DNA of 64,000 nt from Candidatus Shapirobacteria bacterium (GCA_041659325.1 JBAZYN010000002.1:140906-204905), one strand, 5' to 3'. Positions 3,722 through 49,530 are shown, numbered from the stretch's first letter. A program made the numbers and translations. Notes: generated by a model not told the origin, from the letters alone.

Positions 3722-6231
3722 TCAATTTTTTTAAAAAACCAGAAAAGAAGACTGAGGTGGCTCCGATTGCACCAACCGCCACGGAGAAGCAACAACCCGG
3801 ACAGAGGCAGTTTGTGGACGGATTGGTGTCGACGAAGGATATTATTGCGCCTGGATCGTTGGAAGTTGATTTTGAACATATAAGGATTGATGGTAAATAC
3901 TACAGGACATTGTTTATTACCGGATACCCGAGATTTGTTGGAATTAACTGGCTGTCGCCTTTGATTAATTTCGACGCGTCTCTGAATGTGTCGATGTTTA
4001 TTTACCCAACCGATGGAAAAGAGATTTTGGATGACTTAAGGCGAAAAATTGCGGAAATGGAGGCAGAAATTAACACAGATATCCAAAGAGGCCGGGTCGT
4101 AGACCCGTCCACACAGGCCAAGCTTGAGGATGCCCTAAATCTTCAGGCCGATCTGGTGAAGGGAGAAGAGAGATTTTTTCAGTTTGGACTATATGTGACA
4201 ATCTCAGCTACCTCAAAGGAAGAAATTAACAGGATTAATAAAAATCTTGAGGCGGCATTGGGAGCGCTGATGATAATCAGCAAAAAAGCTACTTTGCAAA
4301 TGGAAGAGGGTTTTATGAGCACACTTCCCCTTTGTTCTGACAAGCTGAATATTACCCGAAACATGGATACAACTTCTCTGGCAACAACTTTTCCGTTTGT
4401 CTCGTCTGATCTGTCTGACGACAAGGGAATAATGTATGGGATTAATGAGCATAACGGATCGTTGGTGATTTTTGACCGGTTTTCGATGCAAAACTATAAT
4501 TCGGTGGTTTTTGCCTCAGCCGGAGCAGGAAAATCATATTTGATTAAACTTGAGGCGATCCGGTCACTGATGTTGGGGACAGAGATTATCGTAATCGATC
4601 CGGAAAATGAATATAGGGATTTATGCGAAGCAGTGGGAGGGCAATATATTGCCTTTGGCTACGGAGAGGAATCCAAAATAAATCCTTTTGACCTGTCATT
4701 GGTGGTGGAAGAAGGAGAAAACGCGCTCAATTCTAAGATTTTGGCGCTTCATAAACTTTTTAAAATAATGATCGGGGCTATGGATCCGATCGAGGAGTCG
4801 ATTTTGGATAGGGCGGCAATGGATGCCTACAAAATGAAGGGAATCACGCCTGACATTGAAACCCAAACAAGGGAACCGCCACTGGTGGAAGATTTGTATA
4901 AATCGCTTATCGGGATGGAGGACAAGCAGGCTCAAAACCTGGCGGCAAGATTTGAAAAATACATCAAGGGATCTTTTGCGGGAATATTTAACCAAAAAAC
5001 GACGGTTAATTTGACCAATAAGTTTGTGGTTTTCGGAATAAGAAATTTGGAAGATGCTCTCCGGCCGGTAGCAATGCACATTATTCTTGACTATATCTGG
5101 ACGATAGTAAAAAAGACGCTAAAAAGAAGGATATTGATAGTGGATGAGGCGTGGTATCTCATGCAGTATGAGGATTCGGCGGCATTTTTGAGAGGAATTG
5201 TAAAGCGAGGGAGAAAATATTACATCGGAGTAACAACAATTACACAGGACGTTGACGATTTTCTGGCCACTCCTTACGGAAAAGAAATTGTAACTAATAG
5301 TGCCATTCAGATTCTTTTAAAACAGCACAGTGCGGCGATTGATCAGGTGGGCGATGTTTTTTATTTGTCGGAGGGGGAAAAACAGTTGCTGTTGACGGCC
5401 GATAAGGGCGAGGGAATATTTTTTGCCGGAAAAAATCATGTAGCGATCAGAGTAATAGCATCTGAGGATGAGCACCGGCTGATTACGTCAAACCCAGAAG
5501 AGATTCTGAAGATGAAAAACCAGGGGAAAAGTTTTGGACAAAGCCCGATACCTGAGCCAACGGTCGAGCCACCGGTGGCGCTGATTCCTACGACAGAAGC
5601 AAAGAAACCAGTAGAGGAAATAAAAAAACCTGAGATGGAAAGCAAGCCTCAGCAGGAAACTGCTGCCTTGGACAAAACTAAACTAGCACCGCAAATAGTA
5701 GCCATACCGAAAGAGAAGACTCCTGCGGAGGGAAAACCGGCAATGGGGACCATTTATCAGACGGTGGTGGAAACAAACAAACCAGATGAGCAGGAAGAAA
5801 TACTGAAAAAGAGACTGGCCGAAATGGCGGAACAGGAAAAAAATGAAATTAGCGAACACCGGAAAAAAATTGCCGAAGAAGAAAGGCAGAAAGCCGAGGC
5901 AGAAGCTAAAAGGATGGCAGAAACATCGTCTAGCTTGCCGAAATATCAGGACTTGTTTAAGTCATACACCCCGGCAAAAACGGCGGGGCAAACTAGCCCA
6001 CCACCAATAAAGACTGGGCCGCTTATAAAAAGTGAAACGGTTGGTAATAAACCATTGGTTTTGGAACCAAAAAGGCCTATTTTTTTAAACCAGGAAGAAC
6101 CAAAGATTCCCCAACCGCCACAACTTTCAAAAAAAACAAAACCGGTTTTTGAGGAGCCGAAGGAAGAGGTTAAGGCCGCCACCGATGACGGGAAAACAAA
6201 AATGGATTATGATAAGTTGTTTAGCAACTGA
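3718..6231 (+). CDS. virB4: type IV secretion ATPase VirB4/TrbE/PrgJ family, with a ~240-aa low-complexity P/E/K-rich C-terminal tail
   Basis: Has the VirB4 N-domain signature (KYYRTLFITGYPRFVGINWL), Walker A VVFASAGAGKSYL and Walker B RRILIVDEAWYLM. The tail from ~5500 onward is PEPTVEPP.../EEILKKRLAEMAEQEKNE... low-complexity sequence. Confidence 0.85.
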   Translation: MINFFKKPEKKTEVAPIAPTATEKQQPGQRQFVDGLVSTKDIIAPGSLEVDFEHIRIDGKYYRTLFITGYPRFVGINWLSPLINFDASLNVSMFIYPTDGKEILDDLRRKIAEMEAEINTDIQRGRVVDPSTQAKLEDALNLQADLVKGEERFFQFGLYVTISATSKEEINRINKNLEAALGALMIISKKATLQMEEGFMSTLPLCSDKLNITRNMDTTSLATTFPFVSSDLSDDKGIMYGINEHNGSLVIFDRFSMQNYNSVVFASAGAGKSYLIKLEAIRSLMLGTEIIVIDPENEYRDLCEAVGGQYIAFGYGEESKINPFDLSLVVEEGENALNSKILALHKLFKIMIGAMDPIEESILDRAAMDAYKMKGITPDIETQTREPPLVEDLYKSLIGMEDKQAQNLAARFEKYIKGSFAGIFNQKTTVNLTNKFVVFGIRNLEDALRPVAMHIILDYIWTIVKKTLKRRILIVDEAWYLMQYEDSAAFLRGIVKRGRKYYIGVTTITQDVDDFLATPYGKEIVTNSAIQILLKQHSAAIDQVGDVFYLSEGEKQLLLTADKGEGIFFAGKNHVAIRVIASEDEHRLITSNPEEILKMKNQGKSFGQSPIPEPTVEPPVALIPTTEAKKPVEEIKKPEMESKPQQETAALDKTKLAPQIVAIPKEKTPAEGKPAMGTIYQTVVETNKPDEQEEILKKRLAEMAEQEKNEISEHRKKIAEEERQKAEAEAKRMAETSSSLPKYQDLFKSYTPAKTAGQTSPPPIKTGPLIKSETVGNKPLVLEPKRPIFLNQEEPKIPQPPQLSKKTKPVFEEPKEEVKAATDDGKTKMDYDKLFSN

Positions 6232-12600: not shown

Positions 12601-13883
12601 TCCCGGGCATGCATAATACTGGTGTGATCCCGACCACCTAAAAGCCGGCCAACTTCTTCGAGAGGCAGGTTGATTTCGGTGATTAAAAGGAAAGCGGTTA
12701 AGTGGCGGGCAGTGACCAGGTCTTTTTTGCGACTGGAACCACAAAGGTCGCCGGTTTTTATGCCGAAATGTTTGGCACAAACAGAGATAATATGCCGGGG
12801 AGTGATGTCATTTCTGGTGAGGGAGGAGGAGTTGTGGGATTGAGGTGAAAAATAATTTTGAACAAATTCAAGATCGATTTCGTCTATTTTTTGGGAGATA
12901 GATTGAATAATGATTTCCTGAAGCTTACCTTCGATATCTCTAATGTTTGAGGTGATGCTGTCGGCCATAAAATTAACGGCATCGGAATCGATTTTTATCC
13001 CCTTTTCTTCAGCTTTTTGTTTGATGATGGCGGCACGCATTTCGAAATCGGGCAGTTGGATGTCGACGGTCAGACCGCCCATAAAACGGGAGACAAGTCG
13101 GTCTTCGATTTTGTCAATGTCGGCGGGTTTACGGTCGGAGGTTAATACGACTTGTTTTCCGGCCATATGGAGGGCGTTGAAAGTGTGAAAAAATTCTTCC
13201 TGGATATATTCTTTTCCGGCCAAAAACTGAATGTCGTCGACCAGAATACAATCAAGGTTTCGATATTTGTCTTTGAACTTGTTCATGTCTTTGGACTTGA
13301 GGGCGCTTATTAGCTCATTGCCAAAAGTTTCGGCGGGAAAATATTTGACTTTTAAGTCGGGGTCTTTTTTTAAGAGCTCGTGGCCTATAGCCTGCATTAA
13401 ATGAGTCTTGCCTACCCCGACTCCACCCCAAATAAAAAACGGATTGTAGGCCAGACCCGGATTTTTTATGATCCCCTGGGCGGCGGCGTAGGCAAAATTA
13501 TTGCTGTTGCCGACAACCAGATTTTCAAAGGTATATTTCGGATGAAGATTGGAGAGAGGGGAACGGTTTTTTTGAGAACCGTAGTTGAACAAGGGAGAGT
13601 TGGCGAGGACGTCGCTATTTAAAATTGGTTCCTGAAGAATAAAATCAAGAGAGTTTTTGGTTTTTGTTTGATTATCCAGGGCGCTTTTGAAGAGATCGTA
13701 GTATCTTTTTTTGTTGATATCAACAAGATAGGTGTTGGGGCAAGCGATGGTAGCCTGATTTTCTTTTAGGGCAATGAGCTGAGTTTTGGCAACAAAGGTT
13801 TGGTAGACGGCCGGAGCCAGGACGACCTTTAGTTCTTCTCTTGCATTTTTCCAAATTCGCTCAATTTCGTGAAGAGGCGGCAT
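12528..13883 (-). CDS. dnaA: chromosomal replication initiator protein DnaA
   Basis: AAA+ Walker A NPFFIWGGVGVGKTHLMQAIG and Walker B LDCILVDDIQF. The C-terminus has a DnaA helix-turn-helix (GRDHTSIMHARDKI). Confidence 0.9.
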   Translation of the reverse strand: MPPLHEIERIWKNAREELKVVLAPAVYQTFVAKTQLIALKENQATIACPNTYLVDINKKRYYDLFKSALDNQTKTKNSLDFILQEPILNSDVLANSPLFNYGSQKNRSPLSNLHPKYTFENLVVGNSNNFAYAAAQGIIKNPGLAYNPFFIWGGVGVGKTHLMQAIGHELLKKDPDLKVKYFPAETFGNELISALKSKDMNKFKDKYRNLDCILVDDIQFLAGKEYIQEEFFHTFNALHMAGKQVVLTSDRKPADIDKIEDRLVSRFMGGLTVDIQLPDFEMRAAIIKQKAEEKGIKIDSDAVNFMADSITSNIRDIEGKLQEIIIQSISQKIDEIDLEFVQNYFSPQSHNSSSLTRNDITPRHIISVCAKHFGIKTGDLCGSSRKKDLVTARHLTAFLLITEINLPLEEVGRLLGGRDHTSIMHARDKIHTDLSTNPQTRSVINQIKSAF

Positions 13884-18795: not shown

Positions 18796-18840
18796 CAAAA
18801 TCTACCCCTATCCCCTCCTTTGAAGAAAGGAGGGGAACAA
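18796..18840. repeat. palindromic element (P8), intergenic
   Basis: aaatctacccctatCCCCTCCTTTGAAGAAAGGAGGGGaacaag, near-identical to P6. Confidence 0.8.
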
Positions 18841-19005: not shown

Positions 19006-22000
19006 ATGAATTCGTCGGGGCCAGTGGCAATAGTTTATGGAATAGAAAAATTTGGAGCGAAGTTTTTGGTAAAGGAATTGCTGCTTAAAGATATATATGT
19101 GGTAGGAGTGGGAGAATATGTGTCGGGGATAGAGGAAAATGATAATTTTAGGTGGGTGGCGGGGAGAGGGGATTATGAGGGGAAGGTGAATTATGTTTTT
19201 GATTTTGAGGGAGATAAAAATATTTTTGATTTAGTTTTGAAGAACTCGGCTAAATTAACAGAGATATGCATTAACGACCAAAAAAAAGCGGAAAGAATAA
19301 AAAACGACTTGATTGGGGCGAATATTAACTGGAGGCTAATAGATGCACGGGGGGTGTATGGCCCGGGGATGGCAGATGATGGGGGAGGGAGGACCGGAAT
19401 TAATTTTTTAGTTGAGGCGGTGTCGGGGGCGGTGAAGAATGAAAATTTGGTTTTGCCGGCTTTGGGAACAAAGTTCAGGTTGTTGAATATTGTGGATTTG
19501 ACCGAAGTGGTTTTGAGGGCAAGCTTTTTATCGGGAACCGAGAAGGAGGAATATGTGATATTTGGCAATGAGAGTGACTCGGGGGAAGTAGCAAAGGTGT
19601 TGATTGATGAGGCAAAGATGACTAAGTTTAAGGTGGTCCAGAAGGATTATAAGTTTGAGACTCCAGGTAAGTATGAGATAGAAGAGAACTGGAGAAAATT
19701 ACGATGGCATCCCGGGGTGGAATTTAGAGAGGGAGTGGTGGAAACTTTGCAGTATTTTTTTTCGGTAATTGATGAAGAAAGCAGGAAAAAAATGAAAGAG
19801 GGGTCGAAAGCCAATAAGTCCAAAAGTCTGAAAGTCCAAAAGTCTGAAAGTCAGAAAATAAAAAAGGAGAAGAATTTATCGAGGTTTGAGGTGATGGTGG
19901 AGGAGGAAAAAACCAATTACGAATTACCAATTACCCACCCCGGCGGGCAGGCGAATTACGAATTAGAAAAAGATAAAAAAGAGACGGTAAGAAAGAATGA
20001 GGTGAGTAGGGAGGCAGAAGAAAGGAAAGCAGAAAAATACAAAAAGGAAATAGAGGAAGAATTTAAAAGGGCAAAAGAGAAAGAAGAGGAAAAAAAGGCG
20101 AAGGAGGAGATAATTTATAGTGAAGAGATTAAATCTTTGGCAAAACAATATACCCAAACCACACCACTGGAGAGAGATGAAGTGATAGAAGAGGACGAGG
20201 AAAGGATAGAGATAAAAAACGAGCTAAAAGACGGGCCTGCCCGCCTCGGTGGGTTAATCGGCAGGCAGGTTGAAAGTAGTAAAACGAGAGAAAAAAAAGG
20301 CGGGACAGGAATAATAAACTTTAAAAAGATCGGATTTTTGGTGATGATTATTTTGGGGTTGGGGATGTTTTCGATTCCGGTCGGGTGGGGGATAAAGGTG
20401 GTGGCCGGGATTAAAAATATCTCTAAAATCAGGGAATATATTGAGGAAGAAAAATACGCTGAGGCTGACAAAAAAGCAGAGACGACGATTGCCGGTTTGA
20501 AAAAAATCGACAACCAGATCGATGATTGGGGGCTAAATAGGATGAAGACTTTTAGGAATTTACAGACTGGGCTAAAGGTAGAGGAGGGAGTGTTGGTGAT
20601 TGAGAAAAAGGCGATTCCGATAGCGGAAGCAATGGAAAAAGTTAGCGGGGCGATTTTTGATGATAAAGAGATTTCCTGGGAAAGTGAACTTGAAGTTCTA
20701 AATAAAGGCATGGTGGAGGTTGATACTGAGATTGGGTTGCTGCAGGCTAGGCTTAATGGTGACTGGAACTGGTTGCCAGCCCGATTCCGACCGGAAGTGC
20801 AGAAGGGGATTAAAAGCTTAAACATGGCCAGATCGGTAATAGGAACTTCAAGGAAGGGACTGAATATCTTGAAAGAGTTTTTGGGAAGTGACGGAAAAAG
20901 GAGAGAATACCTGGTACTGTTTCAAAACGAAAATGAGCTTCGGGCAGGCGGAGGGTTTATCGGGTCGTGGGGGATGCTGAGTTTTGAGGGGGGAAAACTG
21001 CTTAACCTGGATATAAGGGACGTTTATGAGGCAGACGGACAGTTGAAAGGCCATGTTGAACCGCCGGCGGAAATTAAACAGTACCTGGGGGAGGCGGGGT
21101 GGTTTTTGAGAGATTCTAACTGGAAGGTGGATTTTGTGGATGCCAATAAGGATATTGAGTGGTTTTTGGAGAAGGAGACGGGAAGAAAGGTGGATGGGGT
21201 GATAGGGATTAATTTGGCGGTGGCCAAGGCGATACTGGATGTTACCGGGCCGATCTACGTGGTTGATTTTGGTGAAAAAATAGGTAAAGACAACCTATAT
21301 GAACAAGCTCAATTTTATGCAGAAAATAAGTTTTTCCCCGGCTCTAAACAGAAGGCTAGCTTTTTGGGGGGACTGGGAAGACAGTTGTTTGAAGAAATCA
21401 GGAATTTGGATTCGAAAAAGATGCTGGAGCTATATCTCCAAATATTAGAGCAGTTTGATAAAAACGAAATCCAACTGGTAATGCATGAAAAGCAGGCGGC
21501 GAAAATTGCGGCAGATTTGGGGTGGGACGGGGCGATATACCAGGGAAAGTGCCTGACTGACCGGTGTTATGCCGATTATTTGTATTTGTCAGAATCTAAC
21601 TTTGGAGTGAACAAGGCCAATTATTATATATACAGAGGGATTGAGCAGACGGTTGATATTACCCAAATGGCCATCAGCAGGGTGCTGAAAATTAACTACG
21701 AGAACACGGCGAAAAATAAAAGTTGGCCGGGTGGGGATTATAAAAATTATTTGAGGGTTTATATACCACAAGATACGAATCTGGCGGAGGTGAGTATTTC
21801 GGATTCGGCACAACCAGGAAAGAAATCGGTGGTGGGGGCAGGGGAGATGAAGATATCACAAATTTATAATAAAAAAGAAATAGGATTTTTAGTGCCGGTA
21901 CCGGTGGGGCAGAAAAGAACTGTAGAGATTAGATACGTAAGTAAAATTGATTTGGGGATAAAGGATAAATTCTCGTACCTTGGGTATATCCAGAAACAGT

Positions 22001-22158
22001 CTGGGTACGGTGATACGGGATTTGTGTCGTTGGTTTCTTTTCCTTTAGGATGGCAGCCGATACAAGTGCAGCCGGCGGCGAATATGGTTAATAATAAACT
22101 TTTGTTTAACACAAAATTGGATATGGATATAAAAATGGGGGTGGAACTGGGGAGATAA
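19006..22158 (+). CDS. DUF4012-domain protein with N-terminal Rossmann-like domain, K/E-rich coiled-coil linker and single TM
   Basis: The C-terminal region has YLVLFQNENELRAGGGFIGSWGML...DGVIGINLAVAKAILDVTGPIYV (DUF4012-type). The linker EEERKAEKYKKEIEEEFKRAKEKEEEKKAKEE contains an in-frame AGTCNNAA repeat insert (KSKSLKVQKSESQKIKKE). Confidence 0.6.
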   Translation: MNSSGPVAIVYGIEKFGAKFLVKELLLKDIYVVGVGEYVSGIEENDNFRWVAGRGDYEGKVNYVFDFEGDKNIFDLVLKNSAKLTEICINDQKKAERIKNDLIGANINWRLIDARGVYGPGMADDGGGRTGINFLVEAVSGAVKNENLVLPALGTKFRLLNIVDLTEVVLRASFLSGTEKEEYVIFGNESDSGEVAKVLIDEAKMTKFKVVQKDYKFETPGKYEIEENWRKLRWHPGVEFREGVVETLQYFFSVIDEESRKKMKEGSKANKSKSLKVQKSESQKIKKEKNLSRFEVMVEEEKTNYELPITHPGGQANYELEKDKKETVRKNEVSREAEERKAEKYKKEIEEEFKRAKEKEEEKKAKEEIIYSEEIKSLAKQYTQTTPLERDEVIEEDEERIEIKNELKDGPARLGGLIGRQVESSKTREKKGGTGIINFKKIGFLVMIILGLGMFSIPVGWGIKVVAGIKNISKIREYIEEEKYAEADKKAETTIAGLKKIDNQIDDWGLNRMKTFRNLQTGLKVEEGVLVIEKKAIPIAEAMEKVSGAIFDDKEISWESELEVLNKGMVEVDTEIGLLQARLNGDWNWLPARFRPEVQKGIKSLNMARSVIGTSRKGLNILKEFLGSDGKRREYLVLFQNENELRAGGGFIGSWGMLSFEGGKLLNLDIRDVYEADGQLKGHVEPPAEIKQYLGEAGWFLRDSNWKVDFVDANKDIEWFLEKETGRKVDGVIGINLAVAKAILDVTGPIYVVDFGEKIGKDNLYEQAQFYAENKFFPGSKQKASFLGGLGRQLFEEIRNLDSKKMLELYLQILEQFDKNEIQLVMHEKQAAKIAADLGWDGAIYQGKCLTDRCYADYLYLSESNFGVNKANYYIYRGIEQTVDITQMAISRVLKINYENTAKNKSWPGGDYKNYLRVYIPQDTNLAEVSISDSAQPGKKSVVGAGEMKISQIYNKKEIGFLVPVPVGQKRTVEIRYVSKIDLGIKDKFSYLGYIQKQSGYGDTGFVSLVSFPLGWQPIQVQPAANMVNNKLLFNTKLDMDIKMGVELGR
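19817..19857. repeat. AGTCNNAA 8-nt-period tandem array (copy A1, in-frame in the DUF4012 gene)
   Basis: agtccaaa agtctgaa agtccaaa agtctgaa agtcagaa. Confidence 0.85.
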
Positions 22159-22242
22159 AATCAATCCCTCACGTCCGGCGGTGGCCGGATGTTTCTCCCT
22201 TTGACCCTCCGAAGGTGGGCAGGCAAGGGAGGCTTCTAAGCT

Positions 22243-22659
22243 TTAATCCCTCTCGGCTTTGCCGCTTCTCCCTTTGACAAGGGAGAGATTTAAAATGTTT
22301 TTAACTTGATTAATTCGGAATAGAATTTGATCGTTAGTAAAGCGAATAGTGTTTATTCCTATCTGTTTTAGAAATTTATCTCTGGATTGATCGTAACCTA
22401 TTTTTTTATCATGGGAATTACCATCAATTTCAATGGCCAAATTTAATTCTGAACAATAGAAGTCAATAACAAATCGATTAATGGGTTTTTGTCTTAAAAA
22501 AGTAAAACCGGTTTTTTTATTTCTTAGTAATTCTCTCCAAATTTTTTCTTCGGCTTCTGTTGGATTGTTTCTGTTTTTTCTTGACAAACCCCTTAACTCT
22601 TTTAAGTAATTAATACTTCCATGTAGTGGGTTTAACGCTTCGATTACAACTTTTTTCAT
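22243..22659 (-). CDS. DUF559 (Vsr-like) endonuclease-fold protein
   Basis: FVIDFYCSELNLAIEIDGNSHD...IRFTNDQI is the DUF559 pattern. The gene is bracketed by inverted copies of the palindromic element. Confidence 0.65.
   Translation of the reverse strand: MKKVVIEALNPLHGSINYLKELRGLSRKNRNNPTEAEEKIWRELLRNKKTGFTFLRQKPINRFVIDFYCSELNLAIEIDGNSHDKKIGYDQSRDKFLKQIGINTIRFTNDQILFRINQVKNILNLSLVKGRSGKAERD
22245..22292. repeat. GC-rich palindromic element (P1), overlapping the 3' end of the DUF559 gene
   Basis: aatccctctcggctttgccgcttCTCCCTTTGACAAGGGAGAGattt. Confidence 0.75.
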
Positions 22660-22670
22660 ACTTTATTATA

Positions 22671-22705
22671 AAGTCTCCCTTGTCAAAGGGAGATTTAGAG
22701 GGATT
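22671..22705. repeat. palindromic element (P2), inverted relative to P1, just upstream of the DUF559 start
   Basis: aagTCTCCCTTGTCAAAGGGAGAtttagagggatt, the reverse complement of the aatccctctaaatctccctttgacaagggagactt consensus. Confidence 0.8.
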
Positions 22706-22722
22706 GAGAGATATAATCTGGT

Positions 22723-23055
22723 ATGAGGAATTTTATAAGAAAAAAAGAAGATTTTGTGTGTGAGCGGTGCGGGGAGAAGGTCACGGGGGATGGGTATACG
22801 GATCATTGCCCGAAATGTTTGTGGGGGAAGCATGTGGATGAGGTACTGCCCGGAGACAGAGCCAGTAAGTGCGGCGGCGGGATGGAACCTACGGAAACAA
22901 GTTACGAAAAAGGGAAATTCCGGATAAATTATAGATGCCAGAAGTGTGGGCATGAATTTTGGGTGAGAGCCGCCGACGCCGGAGGTTATGGCGGCCGAGG
23001 GAAGGGCAAGGACGATAATAGAGAGAAACTTTTAGACTTGATAAGAAACGTTTAG
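22723..23055 (+). CDS. RNHCP-domain zinc-ribbon protein
   Basis: CERCGEKV...GYTDHCPKCLWGKHVD...YRCQKCGHEF matches the RNHCP family pattern. Confidence 0.55.
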   Translation: MRNFIRKKEDFVCERCGEKVTGDGYTDHCPKCLWGKHVDEVLPGDRASKCGGGMEPTETSYEKGKFRINYRCQKCGHEFWVRAADAGGYGGRGKGKDDNREKLLDLIRNV

Positions 23056-39520: not shown

Positions 39521-40564
39521 TTGCGCGCGAAAAATCTTTATGTTTCGTCAAAATGTATAAATTATAAAAATATGAATAAAAAAATAATTACATTTACAAT
39601 GTCGCTGAAACAAAGTCAGTTTGAGGTTGATAGGTTGGAGCAAGAGGCAAAAAAGTTGGGAGTGGAGGTGAACAGGGCGCTTTATCGGGAGTTGAGCTTT
39701 GATTTGAACGAGAGAAGTAGGGTGTTTGTCAAAGGGGAGGAGGTGACGAAAGAGAATACTTTGGGGATGTGGTTTAGAGTAGCGGGGACGATAAGCGGAA
39801 AATATACGGAGGGGAGAAATATGGCGATAAGATTACTACAGGACAGGATTTTTTGTGCTAACCATGCGGGTTATTTGGGGTGGACGAGAATGGGGAAGAT
39901 TGCTCAACACGCGGTATTTTTGGAGAATCAAATTCCCGTAGTCGCGACTAAAATTTTTTATACTAAAGAGCAGGTATTAAATCCCTCTAAATCTCCCTTT
40001 GACAAGGGAGACTTGGGTTTGGGATGGCCTATGATTGCTAAGCATGAGAGAGGGTATCAGGGGAAATCGGTAAGAAAGTTTGAGAACTTTTTGGAATTAG
40101 AGAAATTTGTGATGAAAATGGACGAGATTAATGTGGGGATGTTTTTGTGGCAAAGGTATTTGCCGACAAAATGGGATATCCGAGTGATTGTTCTGGACGG
40201 AAAGGTAATCGGGGCGATGAAGAGGATGGCAAGAGGGAATGAATTCAGAAGTAATTATAGCCTGGGTGGGGCGGTGGAGGCTTGGGATTTGTCGGATAGT
40301 GACAGGATTTTGGCTGAGAAAGTGGCAAAGGTTTGCGGACTGGACTATTGCGGGGTGGATATAATGAAGAGTCCGAAATCCCTCTCTCCAACTAAAGTTG
40401 GAGCCTCCCCCTTTGAGGAAAGGGGGATTTTCAAAGAAGAAGATTATGATAGTTATATTTTGGAGGTGAATAGGCAGTGCCAATTTAAGGGGTTTGAGGA
40501 AGCAACCGGAATTAATGTAGCAAAAGCAGTGGTGGAGATGTTTTTGAAGAGAAATTCAGGGTAA
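39521..40564 (+). CDS. RimK-like ATP-grasp ligase (paralog 3) with two in-frame palindromic-element inserts
   Basis: WPMIAKHERGYQGKSV, VIVLDGKVIGAMKR and YILEVNRQCQF. The inserts NPSKSPFDKGDLGLG (39979-40013) and SPKSLSPTKVGASPFEERGIF (40376-40431) coincide with GC-rich hairpin elements. The true start may be MNKKIITF at 39572. Confidence 0.65.
   Translation: MRAKNLYVSSKCINYKNMNKKIITFTMSLKQSQFEVDRLEQEAKKLGVEVNRALYRELSFDLNERSRVFVKGEEVTKENTLGMWFRVAGTISGKYTEGRNMAIRLLQDRIFCANHAGYLGWTRMGKIAQHAVFLENQIPVVATKIFYTKEQVLNPSKSPFDKGDLGLGWPMIAKHERGYQGKSVRKFENFLELEKFVMKMDEINVGMFLWQRYLPTKWDIRVIVLDGKVIGAMKRMARGNEFRSNYSLGGAVEAWDLSDSDRILAEKVAKVCGLDYCGVDIMKSPKSLSPTKVGASPFEERGIFKEEDYDSYILEVNRQCQFKGFEEATGINVAKAVVEMFLKRNSG
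39979..40013. repeat. palindromic element (P3), in-frame in RimK-like paralog 3
   Basis: aatccctctaaaTCTCCCTTTGACAAGGGAGActt, identical to P5. Confidence 0.85.
40376..40431. repeat. compound palindromic element (P4), in-frame in RimK-like paralog 3
   Basis: aaatccctctctCCAACTAAAGTTGGagcctCCCCCTTTGAGGAAAGGGGGattt. It contains two hairpins. Confidence 0.75.
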
Positions 40565-44946: not shown

Positions 44947-45664
44947 GGAAGCAGTTAGAAATAAGGGAACAAATTTTGTTCCTTTAGACTGATTGCTGTA
45001 CATTAACAATCTGTTTGAATCAACAAGTAATAAAAAACAATTTCTTGGCAACTAAATTGAGTTGCCAAAGTTAAATAATAAATTTCGTTAAAGCAAATGG
45101 TGAATGCCTAGGTTGCTAAAGCCGAAGAAGGACGCAGAAGATAGCGAAATTCATTGGGGAGCTGTCAACAAGTAATGATCCAATGGTGTCCGAATGAGGA
45201 AACTCCCCCATTAGAAATATTGGGGTACCCAACGCAAGTTGAGGTAGGTAAGCCGGGGAACAGAAACATCCAAGTACCCGGAGGAAAATAAATCGTATGA
45301 GATTCCGTTAGTAGCGGTGAGCGAAACCGGATGAGCCTAAACTCTAGTCGCAAGACTAAGAGGGTTGCAGGGTTCGACCTTATGACAGGAAGAAACAGAA
45401 GAACGTTCTGGAATGGACGGCCGAAGACGGTGAAAGCCCCGTATTTTAAATTTCGAGTACTGTTTTAGTTGAATACCTAAGTACCGCGATCCACGTGAAA
45501 TGTCGCGGGAATCTGGGGCGACCAAGCTCCAAGGCTAAATACTTTAGCAGACCGATAGTGAACTAGTACCGCGAGGGAAAGGTGAAAAACACCCTATGTA
45601 AGGGGATGAAATAGATCTGAAACCATTTGCTAACAAACAGACAGAGCTTGTGCTTCGCACCTTG

Positions 45665-45750
45665 AGTCTAAAAGTTGCAAGTCTAAAAGTCTAAAAGTAA
45701 AAAAATACTTTAAAGACCTTGGACTTTAAGACTTTCGACTTAGAGCGCGG
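45665..45750. repeat. AGTCNNAA array plus its inverted copy forming a long hairpin inside 23S rRNA (A4)
   Basis: agtctaaa agttgcaa agtctaaa agtctaaa agtaaaaaaa, then tactttaaagaccttggactttaagactttcgactt, which is the reverse complement of another 8-mer array. Confidence 0.8.
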
Positions 45751-47908
45751 GGCATGAGTAATGTCGTGCCTATTGAAGAATGAGCCTGCGAGTGTTTCTA
45801 ATTACCAAGTTTAATCCCGCTAAGCGGGAGAAGGCGAAGCGAAAGCGAGTCTGAATAAGGCGATTAGGTAATTGGAGATGACCCGAAACCACTTGAGCTA
45901 ACCATGAGCAGGGTGAATGTCAACGAAAGTTGGCAGGAAGCCCGTACGGATCAGAGCTGCAAATCTGTCCGATGACTTGTGGTTAGGGGTAATATGTCAA
46001 TCGAAAGTGGAAATAGCTGGCTCTCTCCGAAATATATATAGGTATAGCGTCAAGTGTTTCTCTTTGGGGGTAGAGCTACTGGATGAATGTTTAAAGGAGC
46101 AATCCTTTGGCATTTAACCAAACTCCGAATACCGAAGAGTATAGCTTGGCAGTCAGTCCGACCGGGATAAGCTGGCCGGGCAAAAGGGGAAGATCCCAGA
46201 CTCACATCTAAGGTCTCTAAATTCATGTTAAGTGGGAAAGGTAGTGATTTTTCTAAGACAGTCAGGAGGTTGGCTCAGAAGCAGCCATCCTTTAAAGAAA
46301 GCGTAATAGCTCACTGATCGACCGTCCGTAGGGATGGTAGAAAAATCGCGCCTAAAATGTAACGAGGCTAAAACATGGTACCGAAGTTGGAGGATCAGGT
46401 GCGTAGCACCAGGAATTACAAAAATTAGTATAAATAAAGTCAGAAGATAATCTTTGAAAATGAATATTTATGCTGTTAGTTTGAAAGAATTAAGTGAACT
46501 ATAAGTCGACTTAGTATTTGAGTTTCATTTTGTAATTTCTAGTGTTGCGCATTTGGTCGGTAGGAGAGCGTTCTGACAGCGGTGAAGCTGTGGCGAAAGC
46601 CTATGTGGAGCGGTCAGAAGTGAGAATGCAGGCATGAGTAACGAAATGCCGGTGAGAATCCGGCACGCCGAAATATCCAAGGTTTCCTCAGCTACGTTGT
46701 TCGTCTGAGGGTTAGGCGATCCTAACACGAGGCCAGTGTAGTGCTGGCGTAGTGGATGGACTACCGGTTAATATTCCGGTCCTTCCTTGAATTCGTTTTA
46801 AGTTGGGGCGTGACGACAGTTGGAAGATTCAGAGTCCGCGTGATCGGGCTTTTAAGTGTTTAGCAAGAAGGGGTTGGAAAATCCGCCTTTTCGTTATAAA
46901 GTGAAGCACGAATAAGAGTTTTCGTGAGAAGACAATTGAATTGCATCCATATGTCCGAGAAAAGCGTCGCAAATAGAATTTAGGGAATTCGTACCCAAAC
47001 CGACACTGGTGGATAAGTCGAGAAGACTAAGGCGATTGGAAGACAGATGATTAAGGAACTTGGCAAATTAACTGGGTGTAAGCTTTGCAAGATACCCTGC
47101 CTCGAATAACATCGAGGCTACAACAAAAGAATGCATGGCGACTGTTTATCAGAAACACAGGTCTCTGCTAACCCGTAAGGGGATGTATAGGGGCTGAAAC
47201 CTGACCGGTGCCAGAAGGTTAAATGAGAGAATAGTTCCGAGCAATCGGAATAGTTTTCGATACAAGCCCTGGTGAACGTCAGCAGTAACTCTAACTGTTC
47301 TAAGGTAGCGAAGTCCTTTGTCGTGTAAGTTACGACCCGTATGAAAGGTTTAACGACTGTGCAACTGTCTTAATCATCTATCCAGTGAAATTGAAAGAGC
47401 GGTGAAGATGCCGTTTAATTACTGTAGGACAAAAAGACCCCATGAAGCTTTACTAGATCTTTACATTGATAAGAATATAATGATTGTCGAGCGTAGGAGG
47501 GAGTCCCGATCGTAAGATCGTGGACGTCAATGGAACACCTCCCTTTGTTATTTTTGAGTCTAACCTATCCCGGTGAAACCCGGGAGGGAACCGTGTATGG
47601 TTGCTAGTTTGCCTGGGGCAGGCACCTGCAAAAAAGTAACGCGGGTACACTAAGGTTGGTTTGGTCCGGCAGGAAATCGGACTGGACGTGCAAAAGCATA
47701 AACCAGCTTGACTGTGAGACTTACTAGTCGAATTCGCCGCAAGGCGAAGTTCCGAACAATTTGATTTCGGAATCAGGGTCGAAAGACGGTTTTAGTGATC
47801 CTCGTGACCCATTTGGTATGGGCACGGGCTTACTGGATAAAAGCTACTCTGGGGATAACAGGCTAGTCGCATCCGATAGTTCATATTGACGATGCGGTTC
47901 GGCACCTC

Positions 47909-48798
47909 AGCCATAAAGGCTGTCGGGGTGGGCGGAAGTAATTCCGTTAGTTTGTTAATCAATGGGTCTTTTTGGTTTTTTATAAGTTTTTTTCAAAAAA
48001 CTTAATATCTAGCTCATAACGGTGAACACCTTAATTGACATTCGGGTAACCTTCGGGTTACTCTTATATGTTCAATGGTCAATACCGTGGGAAGTCTAAC
48101 GAAAGTGCAAAAATCCATTCTTATTGGAAGTCTTTTAGGAGACGGTACAATGAGAAAGAAAATAAATGCATATCTTGAGGTAAATCATGCCTATTCACAA
48201 AAAGTATTAGTGGATTGGAAATATTGCCAATTAAAAAATTTGGTAATAACTCCGCCAAAATGGAGAAGAGGGAATGGAAAGAGAGAAGCTTACCGCTTCT
48301 TTACCCGAAGTTTACCGATTTTAACTCCGTTTTATAATAAATTTTTTATTAACGGGAAGAAAACAATTCCCGATAATTTAAAATTAAATGCTTTGAGTTT
48401 AGCTGTGTGGTTTATGGATGATGGGTCTAAAAGCCGATCATCTATTTATTTAAATACTCAACAGTTTACGGTTGATGAACAAAACCGGCTGATATTTCTT
48501 TTGGAAGATCAGTTTGGAATTAAATCGACTTTAAACAAAGATAAAATTTATTTTCGAATTCGTGTAAGAAGCGAAAGTTCAAAAAAAATGGTAAAAATTA
48601 TTGAAAAATATATTTTGCCCGAACTTAGGTATAAATTGCCAATTGTTATGACCCCGTAACGACTTGTTTTCCGATGTATATCGGGAGACAGATTCATTAT
48701 TTTATAATGGATAATACGCTAGCTCCTACTCTCAATCATATTGAGACAAGAGGATGAAGGGATAGTCTAAGACCATAAGAAATTATGGAATGACATTG
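47909..48798 (+). mobile_element. intron (probably group I) in 23S rRNA, at the GGCACCTC^GATGTCG site (E. coli ~2500 region), encoding a LAGLIDADG homing endonuclease
   Basis: Exon homology with E. coli 23S stops after GGCACCTC (47901-47908) and resumes at GATGTCGACTTGG (48799). The intervening sequence contains the 48075-48659 ORF. Boundaries are ±3 nt. Confidence 0.7.
48075..48659 (+). CDS. LAGLIDADG homing endonuclease (intron-encoded, two-motif monomeric type)
   Basis: Motif 1 SILIGSLLGDGTMRKK and motif 2 LSLAVWFMDDGSKSRS. Located inside the 23S rRNA gene. Confidence 0.85.
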   Translation: MVNTVGSLTKVQKSILIGSLLGDGTMRKKINAYLEVNHAYSQKVLVDWKYCQLKNLVITPPKWRRGNGKREAYRFFTRSLPILTPFYNKFFINGKKTIPDNLKLNALSLAVWFMDDGSKSRSSIYLNTQQFTVDEQNRLIFLLEDQFGIKSTLNKDKIYFRIRVRSESSKKMVKIIEKYILPELRYKLPIVMTP

Positions 48799-49305: not shown

Positions 49306-49423
49306 TTTCGGTCACTGGAGCGAGGTGGAACCACCTTTTCCCATTTCGAACAGAGAAGTGAAACGCCTCAGCGCTGACAATAGGCTTCCCACAAGGGACT
49401 TTGAAGATAGGTCGTGGCCGAAA
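49306..49423 (+). rRNA. 5S rRNA
   Basis: CCCATTTCGAACAGAGAAGTGAAACGCCTCAGCGCTGA matches the conserved 5S loop C/helix III core. The terminal helix is TTCGGTCAC/GTGGCCGAA. Confidence 0.75.
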
Positions 49424-49495: not shown

Positions 49496-49530
49496 AATCC
49501 CTCTAAATCTCCCTTTGACAAGGGAGACTT
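49496..49530. repeat. palindromic element (P5), downstream of 5S rRNA
   Basis: aatccctctaaatctccctttgacaagggagactt. It is preceded at 49466-49478 by a second hairpin, CCCTTGAAAAGGG. Confidence 0.85.

What the first reader, a model, noticed from the sequence alone, without database searches (positions are those of the whole stretch)
22243..22712. DUF559 endonuclease gene bracketed by inverted palindromic elements
The only two oppositely oriented copies of the palindromic element in the window sit at the two ends of the DUF559 gene (22245-22292 and 22671-22705). Downstream there is a further hairpin, CCGGCGGTGGCCGG, at ~22170-22190. DUF559/Vsr-like nucleases are often encoded in small selfish cassettes, and the arrangement resembles a gene flanked by terminal inverted repeats.
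Basis: inference. Interest (0 to 1): 0.55.

Follow-up and report, generated by a model that had tools for sequence, protein, structure and literature searches.

The report
Nuclease gene framed by triplex-motif repeats
A small DUF559 (Vsr-like) nuclease gene sits between two inverted copies of a short dispersed repeat of the BoxC/PIT "intrastrand triplex" kind; related genes from candidate-phyla bacteria carry the same frame and E. coli ycjD adjoins such repeats, which gives this 30-year-old orphan repeat class a first candidate enzyme.

Summary
A 20-nt core (TCTCCCTTTGACAAGGGAGA) and a 9-nt end motif (AATCCCTCT) occur in inverted orientation on both sides of the DUF559 gene (22243-22659, minus strand). 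A third copy lies next to them.

The arrangement is conserved. In 76 related DUF559 loci, 79% have flanking inverted repeats scoring above the 99th percentile of control positions, with a strict orientation rule. Orthologous sites occur empty, with a lone element, or with the full cassette, so the unit is gained and lost.

The repeats are not private ends of this gene. About 95% of copies are solos, a quarter of them in frame inside genes (here RadA and a RimK-like gene). Each element is a pyrimidine block, its mirror image and its complement. This is the block layout of the known BoxC/PIT/TM intrastrand-triplex repeats. E. coli ycjD (DUF559) also ends in such a repeat, and published TMECO no. 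9 lies 168 nt downstream.

I found no paper linking these repeats to DUF559. The main study states that no mobility enzyme was found near them.

Best reading: a selfish, homing-like nuclease cassette whose enzyme acts on these repeats. The architecture is shown; the enzymology is inferred.

The parts
22243..22659 (-). DUF559 (Vsr-fold, PD-(D/E)xK) nuclease gene, 138 aa. The last 14 codons (LSLVKGRSGKAERD) and the stop codon are encoded by the downstream element.
   Evidence: Pfam PF04480 E=6.7e-27. Profile match to solved DUF559 3HRL, E=5e-24. AlphaFold model pLDDT 81. Foldseek: 3HRL TM 0.91, homing endonuclease I-Bth0305I catalytic domain TM 0.80-0.82. Invariant D66, E77, D79, H83 in 24 homologues.
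22671..22705 (-). Upstream inverted repeat of the gene, the canonical 35-mer AATCCCTCT-AAA-TCTCCCTT-TGAC-AAGGGAGA-CTT. The blocks are third-strand block Y3, linker, pyrimidine arm Y, loop, purine arm R.
   Evidence: Identical to the solos at 39980 and 49496. Folds as a hairpin with the 5' motif unpaired, z=-3.8.
22665..22670 (-). TATAAT hexamer 5 nt upstream of the DUF559 ATG, between the upstream element and the gene. Possibly a -10 box for a near-leaderless transcript.
   Evidence: Read directly from the sequence. The same TATAAT-like box recurs at this place in most related loci. No full sigma-70 match in the consensus scan.
22245..22288 (+). Downstream inverted repeat of the gene: AATCCCTCT, then small hairpin P1 (CGGCTTTGCCG, 22254-22264), then the core at 22267-22286. 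[quoted passage not shown]
   Evidence: both hairpins predicted, z=-3.7.
22163..22236 (+). Extra third copy just outside the cassette: AATCCCTCA, then P1 hairpin (contains CCGGCGGTGGCCGG), then a P2 hairpin with an extended apical stem.
   Evidence: z=-2.7. Extra flanking copies recur at other cassettes.
39980..40014 (+). Solo canonical element, in frame (NPSKSPFDKGDL) inside a RimK-like ATP-grasp gene.
   Evidence: The ortholog L189 has the element 35/35 identical while the flanks are 73-75% identical (20 of the 35 positions are identical by selection of L189).
40377..40427 (+). Variant element with a P1 hairpin and TCCCCCTT..AAGGGGGA arms, in frame in the same ATP-grasp gene.
49496..49530 (+). 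Solo canonical element, intergenic, 73 nt after the 5S rRNA.
54660..54695 (+). Variant element (TCCTCCCTT..AAGGGAGGA) in frame near the C-terminus of RadA (NPSSNPPFDKGGRG).
   Evidence: RadA of L005 lacks the insert; L067, L028 and L087 have decayed versions at the same point.
53669..53706 (+). Second-subfamily element (AAATCTACCCCTAG-CCCCTCCTTTGACGAAAGGAGGGG) in frame in the N-terminal linker of RadA (LPLAPPLTKGGEG).
18797..18836 (+). Second-subfamily element, intergenic, upstream of the DUF4012 gene.

Best explanation
The locus is a small selfish nuclease cassette, about 545 bp from 22163 to 22705. It consists of a DUF559 (Vsr-fold) endonuclease gene bounded by inverted copies of a short dispersed repeat. 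Each repeat copy is a pyrimidine block (Y3), a linker or small variable hairpin, the mirror-image pyrimidine block (Y), a loop, and the complementary purine block (R). This is the block order expected to let a single strand fold into a hairpin plus third strand. It is the layout of the known BoxC/PIT/TM intrastrand-triplex repeats. Proposed mechanism, inferred and not shown: the nuclease, probably as a dimer, recognises these repeats by sequence around the conserved palindrome centre CTTTGACAAG and/or by their folded form, and nicks or cuts at them. Recombinational repair from another copy then spreads and homogenises solo elements. When the donor is a gene-bearing copy, repair carries the gene in between two inverted elements. 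The gene thereby splits its own site, as homing endonuclease genes do. Shown here: the anatomy, its conservation, the orientation rule, gain and loss at orthologous sites, the mirror-repeat covariation, and the sequence conservation of solos. Inferred: that the nuclease acts on the repeats, and how copies move.
For: Inverted repeats flank 79% of 76 related DUF559 loci above the control 99th percentile (median score 40 against 19). The two repeats of one cassette match each other better than repeats of other cassettes (Mann-Whitney P=6e-24). Orientation is fixed: the mirror block is on the outer side in 65/71 upstream and 61/66 downstream elements, and the loop reads TGAC upstream (37 to 1) and GTCA downstream (30 to 0). 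Homologue C-termini read into the element (..SLVKGR.., PPCQGRG) and over-extended N-termini read NPS..PFDKGD. Cassettes sit in many unrelated housekeeping contexts. Orthologous sites occur in three states: empty (L075, 48-nt spacer; L146, 2-nt spacer), solo element (L195, L183, L128, L106, L113) or cassette (window, L073, L083). The upstream repeat of the window cassette is identical to the window's solos. Between orthologous solos, the 15 element positions that were not used to find them are 93% identical while flanks are 76% identical (20 pairs). Nuclease identity and repeat similarity co-vary (Mantel r=0.23, P=0.001). Gene-less inverted doublets exist with the same polarity as the cassettes (Table 1 of PMC4666352 with L217). 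The predicted fold is closest to DUF559 3HRL and then to the catalytic domain of the homing endonuclease I-Bth0305I, a stable dimer that cuts a pseudopalindrome. No other mobility gene recurs next to solos: 200 neighbouring ORFs fall into 147 clusters, and the ten largest clusters checked are housekeeping genes. E. coli ycjD ends in a repeat, and TMECO no. 9 lies 168 nt downstream, beyond a partial duplicate of the ycjD 3' end.
Against: There is no biochemical evidence that any DUF559 protein cuts these repeats. Solos far outnumber cassette ends (77 clear solos against 5 gene-adjacent copies). ycjD was not detected by DNA similarity in 2048 of 5426 E. coli genomes, yet all of them keep about 18 repeat copies, so copies persist without that gene. 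Some cassettes have different subfamilies on their two sides, or chimeric upstream elements (L014, L005, L020). The polarity of the repeats relative to the gene is reversed in the proteobacterial locus L217, and Enterobacter locus L214 has both repeats downstream. Element-free orthologous sites (L075, L146) mean that entry cannot rely only on a pre-existing element. No target-site duplication could be defined. The protein lacks the large N-terminal DNA-binding domain of I-Bth0305I. Holder et al. did not detect triplex formation in vivo for the E. coli repeats (PMC4666352).
Confidence: 0.55

Rival explanations
1. This is a REP/RAYT-like partnership rather than homing. DUF559 would be a vertically kept, possibly domesticated enzyme that maintains or disperses its own repeat family, and it sits between two of its substrate sequences as RAYT genes sit between inverted REPs.
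For: The architecture matches REP/RAYT: one small enzyme gene between inverted copies of a dispersed palindromic repeat, with many solos and some doublets. The same insertion site is retained across species with 64-78% protein identity (L002, L005, L028 share the downstream gene). ycjD is single-copy in E. coli. Paralogues within one genome carry different repeat subfamilies (L028, L036, L052; L009, L022).
Against: The enzyme is a hydrolytic PD-(D/E)xK nuclease, not an HUH/Y1 transposase, so it cannot carry out strand transfer itself. Cassettes show presence/absence polymorphism and several copies per genome. Repeats persist in E. coli genomes in which ycjD was not detected.
Confidence: 0.2
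2. The association is passive. Triplex-motif repeats are hot spots of breakage and rearrangement, so small horizontally acquired genes such as DUF559 tend to land or survive between them, or the repeats insert preferentially at this gene's ends. The nuclease would not act on them.
For: Holder et al. found TM loci far more rearranged than control intergenic regions (PMC4666352). In E. coli ycjD plus repeats occupy the place of the eefRABCD operon. The same CPR spacer also holds unrelated long hairpins in other genomes. Most repeat copies have no DUF559 nearby.
Against: A hot spot does not explain the strict orientation rule, the matching of the two sides of one cassette, or the co-variation with the protein. 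It also does not explain why DUF559 is the only recurrent non-housekeeping neighbour, or why the pattern is seen in distantly related bacteria (Patescibacteria, an Enterobacter locus and E. coli).
Confidence: 0.13
3. The flanking elements are regulatory parts of the gene. The upstream copy would provide promoter or operator sequences and the downstream copy a 3' stabiliser or terminator for a potentially toxic nuclease, for example through autoregulation by binding of the nuclease.
For: A TATAAT box lies between the upstream element and the ATG in most loci, and the loop carries TTGACA. The downstream element overlaps the stop codon. One terminator-like call was made on the upstream core.
Against: The TTGACA-TATAAT spacing varies from 9 to 19 nt, and no sigma-70 match was found in the scan. 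PIT elements showed no promoter or terminator activity in E. coli, as cited in PMC4666352. Regulation does not explain hundreds of identical solos, a quarter of them inside coding regions.
Confidence: 0.1
4. Chance: two copies of a common intergenic repeat happen to fall in the two spacers next to a short gene.
For: The window has about 10 copies in 64 kb.
Against: P is about 1e-4 for three copies at this gene. The same arrangement is found in 60 of 76 independent loci.
Confidence: 0.01

Closest known systems
BoxC / PIT (potential intrastrand triplex) / TM-TMECO repeats of E. coli and other bacteria (Holder et al. 2015, PMC4666352; earlier Bergler 1992, Bachellier 1999 and Hoyne 2000 as cited there)
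   Same: Both have three consecutive blocks, two of them mirror images and the third complementary, with short loops (TTA in E. coli, AAA or TTT here). Both are dispersed in many near-identical copies and also occur as inverted doublets. Both are associated with local rearrangement. The E. coli copy no. 9 lies next to the DUF559 gene ycjD.
   Different: The sequence is A/T-richer (TCCCTCT/TCTCCCT/AGGGAGA instead of CCCTCNCCC/GGGNGAGGG). A variable small hairpin is often inserted in the linker. About a quarter of copies are in frame inside genes, whereas TMECO is reported as always intergenic. The link to a nuclease gene is not described in that work, which states that no mobility function was found nearby.
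REP elements and their RAYT transposases (REPtron/REPIN systems; PMC3116915)
   Same: A single small enzyme gene lies between inverted copies of a short palindromic repeat that is scattered through the genome as solos and doublets. Each enzyme lineage has its own repeat variant.
   Different: The enzyme is a Vsr-fold PD-(D/E)xK hydrolase, not an HUH/Y1 transposase. The repeats carry a mirror-repeat third block. Cassettes occur in several copies per genome and are polymorphic.
EDxHD homing endonucleases (I-Bth0305I; PMC3239194)
   Same: The catalytic fold is the same (Foldseek TM 0.80-0.82). I-Bth0305I is a dimeric enzyme cutting a pseudopalindromic site. Both genes are selfish, with presence/absence polymorphism.
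   Different: The gene here is free-standing, not in an intron or intein. There is no N-terminal DNA-binding domain. The putative target is a multicopy repeat rather than a unique conserved gene.
Rickettsia palindromic elements (RPE; Ogata 2000, as cited in PMC3184786)
   Same: Short palindromic repeats inserted in frame into conserved protein genes and tolerated as extra peptide segments.
   Different: Unrelated sequence. As far as I know, no associated enzyme has been identified for RPEs. RPEs are longer (about 105-146 bp).
Vsr very-short-patch repair endonuclease
   Same: Same superfamily and fold; both are small single-domain nucleases.
   Different: No Vsr Pfam match and only a weak structural match. 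There is no neighbouring cytosine methyltransferase in the window.

Membership tests
DUF559 (PF04480) | Significant match to the Pfam model above its gathering score | tested here: met
   E=6.7e-27, 93.9 bits against a cutoff of 20.6, residues 23-121. Also matches NCBIfam PRK09767 (YcjD) at E=1.8e-16, but below its equivalog cutoff.
DUF559 (PF04480) | Vsr-like PD-(D/E)xK fold with conserved acidic and His residues | tested here: met
   Invariant D66, E77, D79, H83, D90, R93 in 24 homologues. The model superposes on 3HRL with TM 0.91 and rmsd 1.5 A.
DUF559 (PF04480) | Nuclease activity | not testable with these tools
   No biochemical data for this protein. None was found for any free-standing DUF559 protein in the 25 papers that mention the family.
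BoxC/PIT/TM intrastrand triplex repeats | Three consecutive blocks: a pyrimidine block, its mirror image, and the complementary purine block | tested here: met
   Window: TCCCTCT-AAA-TCTCCCT(T)-TGAC-(A)AGGGAGA. Across 21 distinct arm types, an exact mirror copy lies within 45 nt in 60%, against 17% for a direct copy and 4% for mirrors of other arms (Wilcoxon P=1e-3 and 3e-4).
BoxC/PIT/TM intrastrand triplex repeats | Stems of 6-15 nt and loops of 1-6 nt (search criteria of Holder et al.) | tested here: met
   The canonical copy has 7-8 nt blocks and loops of 3 and 4 nt. Copies with a P1 hairpin in the linker exceed the loop limit.
BoxC/PIT/TM intrastrand triplex repeats | Many dispersed, highly similar copies per genome | tested here: met
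   About 10 copies in 64 kb. At least 120 metagenome contigs carry the exact 20-mer, and the scan stopped at its limit.
BoxC/PIT/TM intrastrand triplex repeats | Match to the TMECO consensus CCCTCNCCC-N3-6-GGGNGAGGG-N3-GGGNGAGGG | tested here: not met
   The window elements have a different, A/T-richer sequence. They share the design, not the sequence, so they form a separate subfamily.
BoxC/PIT/TM intrastrand triplex repeats | Formation of a triplex by the isolated strand | not testable with these tools
   ViennaRNA predicts only the hairpins and leaves the 5' block unpaired. CD/NMR was done only for the E. coli sequence (PMC4666352).
Homing endonuclease genes (EDxHD family) | Catalytic domain of the I-Bth0305I type | tested here: met
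   Foldseek probability 1.0, TM 0.80-0.82. The sequence-profile match is weak (E=0.016).
Homing endonuclease genes (EDxHD family) | Residence in a group I intron or intein, and an N-terminal DNA-binding domain | tested here: not met
   The gene is a free-standing 138-aa ORF between DUF4012 and RNHCP genes. There is no intron RNA match.
Homing endonuclease genes (EDxHD family) | Presence/absence polymorphism at orthologous sites | tested here: met
   Window against L075, L071, L084; L073 against L146 and L195; L083 against L128.
Homing endonuclease genes (EDxHD family) | Cleavage of the gene-less allele by the encoded enzyme | not testable with these tools
   Requires an enzyme assay.
REP/RAYT systems | Enzyme gene flanked by inverted copies of the genome's dispersed palindromic repeat | tested here: met
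REP/RAYT systems | Enzyme is an HUH/Y1 (IS200/IS605 TnpA-like) transposase | tested here: not met
   Only PF04480 and a weak PF18741 match. The fold is Vsr-like.
IS/MITE transposons | Terminal inverted repeats plus a transposase and target-site duplications | tested here: not met
   Inverted repeats are present, but there is no transposase domain. No duplication could be defined at the diverged empty sites, so that sub-feature is inconclusive.
Vsr repair endonuclease | Pfam Vsr model match and a partner cytosine-5 methyltransferase gene next door | tested here: not met
   No Vsr family hit. The neighbours are DUF4012 and RNHCP genes.

The most novel reading that the evidence does not exclude
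DUF559 proteins, including E. coli YcjD, are the long-missing enzymes of the BoxC/PIT/TM intrastrand-triplex repeats across bacteria. They would recognise the folded hairpin-plus-third-strand form, or the inverted doublet, cut there, and so drive the spread, homogenisation and local genome instability attributed to these repeats. This would be a nuclease-driven, REP/RAYT-like system built on a Vsr fold and a triplex-forming DNA substrate.
Probability: 0.3. Interest if true: 0.85.

Novelty: new variant of a known kind. Interest (0 to 1): 0.72.

Why it matters
BoxC/PIT/TM repeats have been known in E. coli since the 1990s. They form triplexes in vitro and mark unstable loci, but they have no known origin, function or enzyme. 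DUF559 is a very large family (thousands of proteins in the two searches here, including E. coli YcjD) with no known role.

A conserved physical link between the two makes both questions testable with simple experiments, such as cleavage assays with YcjD or the CPR protein on repeat substrates.

The link also shows that reduced CPR genomes carry an active-looking selfish repeat system that inserts peptide segments into core proteins such as RadA. It further explains why DUF559 genes appear among predicted "programmed inversion" targets (PMC9881135).

Tried and rejected
- **Rfam:** searched at gathering threshold on the whole window and at E up to 10 on 22100-22800. No family covers the elements.
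- **Promoter/terminator scan:** no sigma-70 match, and only a weak terminator-like call on the core. Terminator and promoter roles are set aside, also because copies sit inside coding regions.
- **Viral contigs:** only 3 distant DUF559 relatives in IMG/VR, so a phage-borne origin is not supported.
- **Defence-system library:** only marginal matches (DpdF, E=5e-6 over 60 residues).
- **Own-locus solo search:** using each cassette's upstream repeat, only 18 matches in 1.14 Mb. This is too sparse to test genome-level co-occurrence.
- **Simple homing into a solo, and deletion between the two palindromes:** both considered. Neither alone predicts that solos carry only one end motif while cassettes carry it on both outer sides.
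- **Direct-repeat reading of the end motif:** rejected in favour of a mirror repeat.
- **Loop motif against the I-Bth0305I site TTxG-N6-CxAA:** the spacing does not fit, so it was not pursued.
- **E. coli as a place to find doublet/cassette polymorphism:** ycjD is single-copy at one locus, so it is not informative.
- **Literature:** nine searches (DUF559, PF04480, ycjD, Vsr-like plus inverted repeats, BoxC and others) found no paper describing the association.

Full report
**1. What is at the locus**

The window comes from a Candidatus Shapirobacteria (Patescibacteria/CPR) genome, 43.7% G+C. The ORF at 22243-22659 on the minus strand encodes a 138-aa DUF559 protein (PF04480, E=6.7e-27).

In the gene's own orientation, the sequence just upstream reads AATCCCTCT-AAA-TCTCCCTT-TGAC-AAGGGAGA-CTT (22705 down to 22671). 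This is followed by TATAAT and, 5 nt later, the ATG.

The 20-nt cores are perfectly complementary arms 387 nt apart. None is expected by chance.

A third, larger copy lies just outside at 22163-22236.

Seven further copies lie elsewhere in the window:
- Two are canonical 35-mers identical to the upstream repeat (39980, 49496).
- Two are variants (40377, 54660).
- Two belong to a second subfamily (18797, 53669).
- Four of these six sit in frame inside genes: two in RadA and two in a RimK-like ATP-grasp gene.

**2. The arrangement is a property of the gene family**

The C-termini of most homologues read into the element (..SLVKGR.., PPCQGRG, LACQGEV). N-terminally over-called ORFs read the other orientation (NPS..PFDKGD).

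I fetched 80 DUF559 loci from one genome per species, mostly Shapirobacteria and other Patescibacteria, plus loci from metagenomes. Four tests followed.

- **Flanking inverted repeats.** The best local alignment between the upstream flank and the reverse complement of the downstream flank has a median score of 40. Shifted control positions in the same loci (n=778) have a median of 19. 79% of 76 loci exceed the control 99th percentile.
- **Own pair against cross pairs.** The two flanks of one cassette match each other better than flanks of different cassettes (median 40 against 22; P=6e-24).
- **Orientation.** The end motif is on the outer side in 65/71 upstream and 61/66 downstream elements. 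The asymmetric loop reads TGAC upstream (37 to 1) and GTCA downstream (30 to 0).
- **Co-variation.** Protein identity and repeat similarity co-vary modestly (Mantel r=0.23, P=0.001). Paralogues in one genome carry different repeat subfamilies.

**3. The cassette is gained and lost**

The genes sit between unrelated housekeeping genes in different genomes.

The synteny DUF4012 - RNHCP - FtsH of the window is found in L075, L071 and L084 without any DUF559 gene or element. The spacers there are 48-115 nt, against 565 nt in the window.

Two other sites show three states each:
- At the first site, L146 is empty (2-nt spacer), L195 and L183 hold a solo element, and L073 holds a full cassette.
- At the second site, L128, L106 and L113 hold a solo element whose end motif supplies the last codons and stop of the upstream gene. 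L083 has a cassette beginning at the same point.

L108 has a copy in frame in the 5' end of the RNHCP gene itself.

**4. Most copies are solos and their sequence is maintained**

A scan of metagenome contigs for the exact 20-mer returned 120 stretches with 131 matches before stopping at its limit. Of these matches:
- 5 adjoin a DUF559 gene. All 5 obey the orientation rule. This is an enrichment over the 0.8% of sequence lying near such genes (P=0.003).
- 77 are clear solos.
- 49 are too close to a contig end to classify.

Solos have a sharp left boundary at AATCCCTCT. Between this motif and the core there is either AAA or a highly variable small hairpin, often with a CTTCGG-type loop.

26 of 102 solos with enough flanking sequence lie inside long open reading frames, in either orientation.

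Genes next to solos are ordinary housekeeping genes. 200 neighbouring ORFs fall into 147 clusters, and no transposase appeared among the ten largest clusters checked.

In 20 orthologous pairs of solos, the flanks are 76% identical. The 15 element positions not used for ascertainment are 93% identical (example). The elements are therefore either under constraint or homogenised. In RadA, however, an old insertion has decayed in other genomes.

**5. What the element is**

The 5' end motif is the mirror image (reverse, not complement) of the 5' arm of the main hairpin, and it co-varies with that arm. Examples:
- TCCCTCT / TCTCCCT
- CCCCTCC / CCTCCCC
- TCTCCCCCT / TCCCCCTCT
- TCTTCCCCC / CCCCCTTCT
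- CCCTTT / TTTCCC

Over 21 distinct arm types, an exact mirror copy lies within 45 nt in 60% of cases. A direct copy does so in 17%, and mirrors of other arms in 4% (P=1e-3 and 3e-4).

Y3-linker-Y-loop-R is the block order expected for an intrastrand pyrimidine-motif triplex. On the other strand it corresponds to a purine-motif triplex (my assessment from general knowledge of triplex geometry).

This led to Holder et al. 2015 (PMC4666352). That paper describes exactly this class: BoxC, also called PIT elements, also called TM or TMECO.
- There are 23 copies in E. coli K-12, including 5 inverted doublets.
- A stable triplex forms in vitro, but was not detected in vivo.
- The G/C-rich motif class is reported in more than 260 genomes.
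- The repeats are associated with local instability.
- There is no known function.
- The authors state that no transposase or integrase remnants were found nearby.

**6. The link extends to E. coli**

ycjD is the DUF559 gene of E. coli K-12 (NC_000913 1351407-1351760, minus strand). It ends inside a degenerate repeat.

A partial duplicate of its 3' end follows, and then TMECO no. 9 of Holder's Table 1 (1351239-1351204). This copy is on the same strand and in the same orientation as the CPR downstream repeats.

That 51-nt stretch is repeated a median of 18 times in each of 5426 E. coli genomes.

Enterobacterial YcjD homologues almost all end ..LPSPRPSP or SPSPQPSPQRGEG, which is again a read-through into a repeat.

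The geometry differs from the CPR clade in the two loci examined:
- In an Enterobacter locus (L214), a doublet lies downstream of the gene.
- In another proteobacterial locus (L217), the gene is framed by inverted repeats with the third-strand block on the inner side.
- The inner-side polarity is also the polarity of the gene-less doublets in E. coli. CPR gene-less doublets have the CPR polarity.

ycjD is single-copy and was detected in 3378 of 5426 genomes. Where it is absent at this site, the eefRABCD operon occupies the place between fabI and sapF (PMC12817139).

**7. The protein**

The profile matches the solved DUF559 structure 3HRL from Neisseria gonorrhoeae at E=5e-24.

The AlphaFold model has a mean pLDDT of 81. 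The element-encoded tail (residues 132-138) is below 50.

Foldseek places the model closest to 3HRL (TM 0.91). Next comes the catalytic domain of I-Bth0305I (TM 0.80-0.82), and Vsr is far weaker. I-Bth0305I is a bona fide homing endonuclease that forms a stable dimer and cuts a pseudopalindrome.

Acidic and His residues are invariant. The family is nearly absent from viral contigs.

**8. Interpretation**

Shown:
- a conserved cassette of nuclease gene plus inverted triplex-motif repeats;
- its insertion polymorphism;
- its kinship with a much larger population of solo repeats whose sequences are maintained;
- adjacency of the same repeat class to DUF559 genes in Patescibacteria, an Enterobacter locus and E. 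coli.

Inferred: the nuclease acts on the repeats, and break repair copies elements and, at times, the gene. This is a homing-like logic in which the gene splits an inverted doublet.

Weak points:
- There is no enzymology.
- Solos predominate.
- Repeats persist in genomes where ycjD was not detected.
- Some cassettes carry mixed subfamilies.
- Polarity is reversed between clades.
- Some orthologous sites are entirely element-free.

Three rivals remain open at lower probability: a REP/RAYT-like maintenance enzyme, a passive hot-spot association, and a purely regulatory role for the flanks.

**9. Novelty**

The repeat class, the protein family and the general idea of selfish nuclease cassettes are each known. 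The association between them appears unreported in the searchable literature.

The only hint I found is that DUF559 proteins are 14-fold enriched among predicted inversion targets, meaning genes with inverted repeats (PMC9881135).

I rate the finding a new variant of a known kind. It has high practical interest because it is directly testable in E. coli.

Noticed in passing
window 48075-48659 (+): A LAGLIDADG_2 homing-endonuclease ORF (E=2.6e-42) lies in the 1.3-kb gap between the 23S rRNA (Rfam match 45077-47994, full-length model) and the 5S rRNA (49307-49423). It is either free-standing or inside an unrecognised intron at the 3' end of the 23S.
   Followed up: partly
L071 (rc) about 12908-13024; L084 7502-7612; L144 about 1080-1200: The spacer orthologous to the window's cassette site carries unrelated long hairpins (30-40 bp stems) in other genomes. 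This suggests a second class of palindromic element and a shared insertion hot spot.
   Followed up: no
window 53475-54845 (RadA) and 39521-40564 (RimK-like ATP-grasp): Each of these conserved genes carries two in-frame element insertions. RadA of L005 lacks the C-terminal one, while L067, L028 and L087 have decayed versions of it. Repeat-derived peptides are therefore tolerated in core proteins of this reduced genome.
   Followed up: partly
L209 (E. coli K-12 NC_000913) 4041-4900; L210 (O157:H7): In E. coli, ycjD plus its repeats occupy the fabI-sapF interval that holds the 7-kb eefRABCD efflux operon in other phylogroups. A partial duplicate of the ycjD 3' end sits between ycjD and TMECO no. 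9. A 17-bp-stem hairpin containing TTCTGACAA/TTGTCAGAA overlaps the ycjD start.
   Followed up: partly
L005 9840-10000; L020 9880-10000; L014 9880-10411: Some upstream repeats are chimeras that switch subfamily at the loop (after TTTGAC or CCCTT). In L014 the two sides of the cassette belong to different subfamilies. This hints at recombination or template switching at the hairpin loop.
   Followed up: no
L133, L142, L160, L158, L111/L207, L140/L156, L187 (positions as): There are gene-less inverted doublets of elements, often of two different subfamilies, separated by 9-30 nt. They have the same outward polarity as the cassettes. They could be empty homing sites or cassettes that lost the gene.
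   Followed up: partly
L131 5203-5933: Three copies of a P1-bearing element occur within about 700 bp inside one long ORF rich in Lys/Glu/Pro repeats, each read as ..PPAAASPFDKGD...
   Followed up: no
window 19006-22158 (+): The gene just outside the cassette encodes a 1050-aa DUF4012 protein with a long Lys/Glu-rich low-complexity segment and an N-terminal Rossmann-like region. Its function is unknown.
   Followed up: no
window 22243-22659; L002, L005, L028: DUF559 homologues of 64-78% identity in L002, L005 and L028 share the same downstream neighbour gene with one another, though not with the window. At least one insertion site has therefore been kept through speciation.
   Followed up: partly
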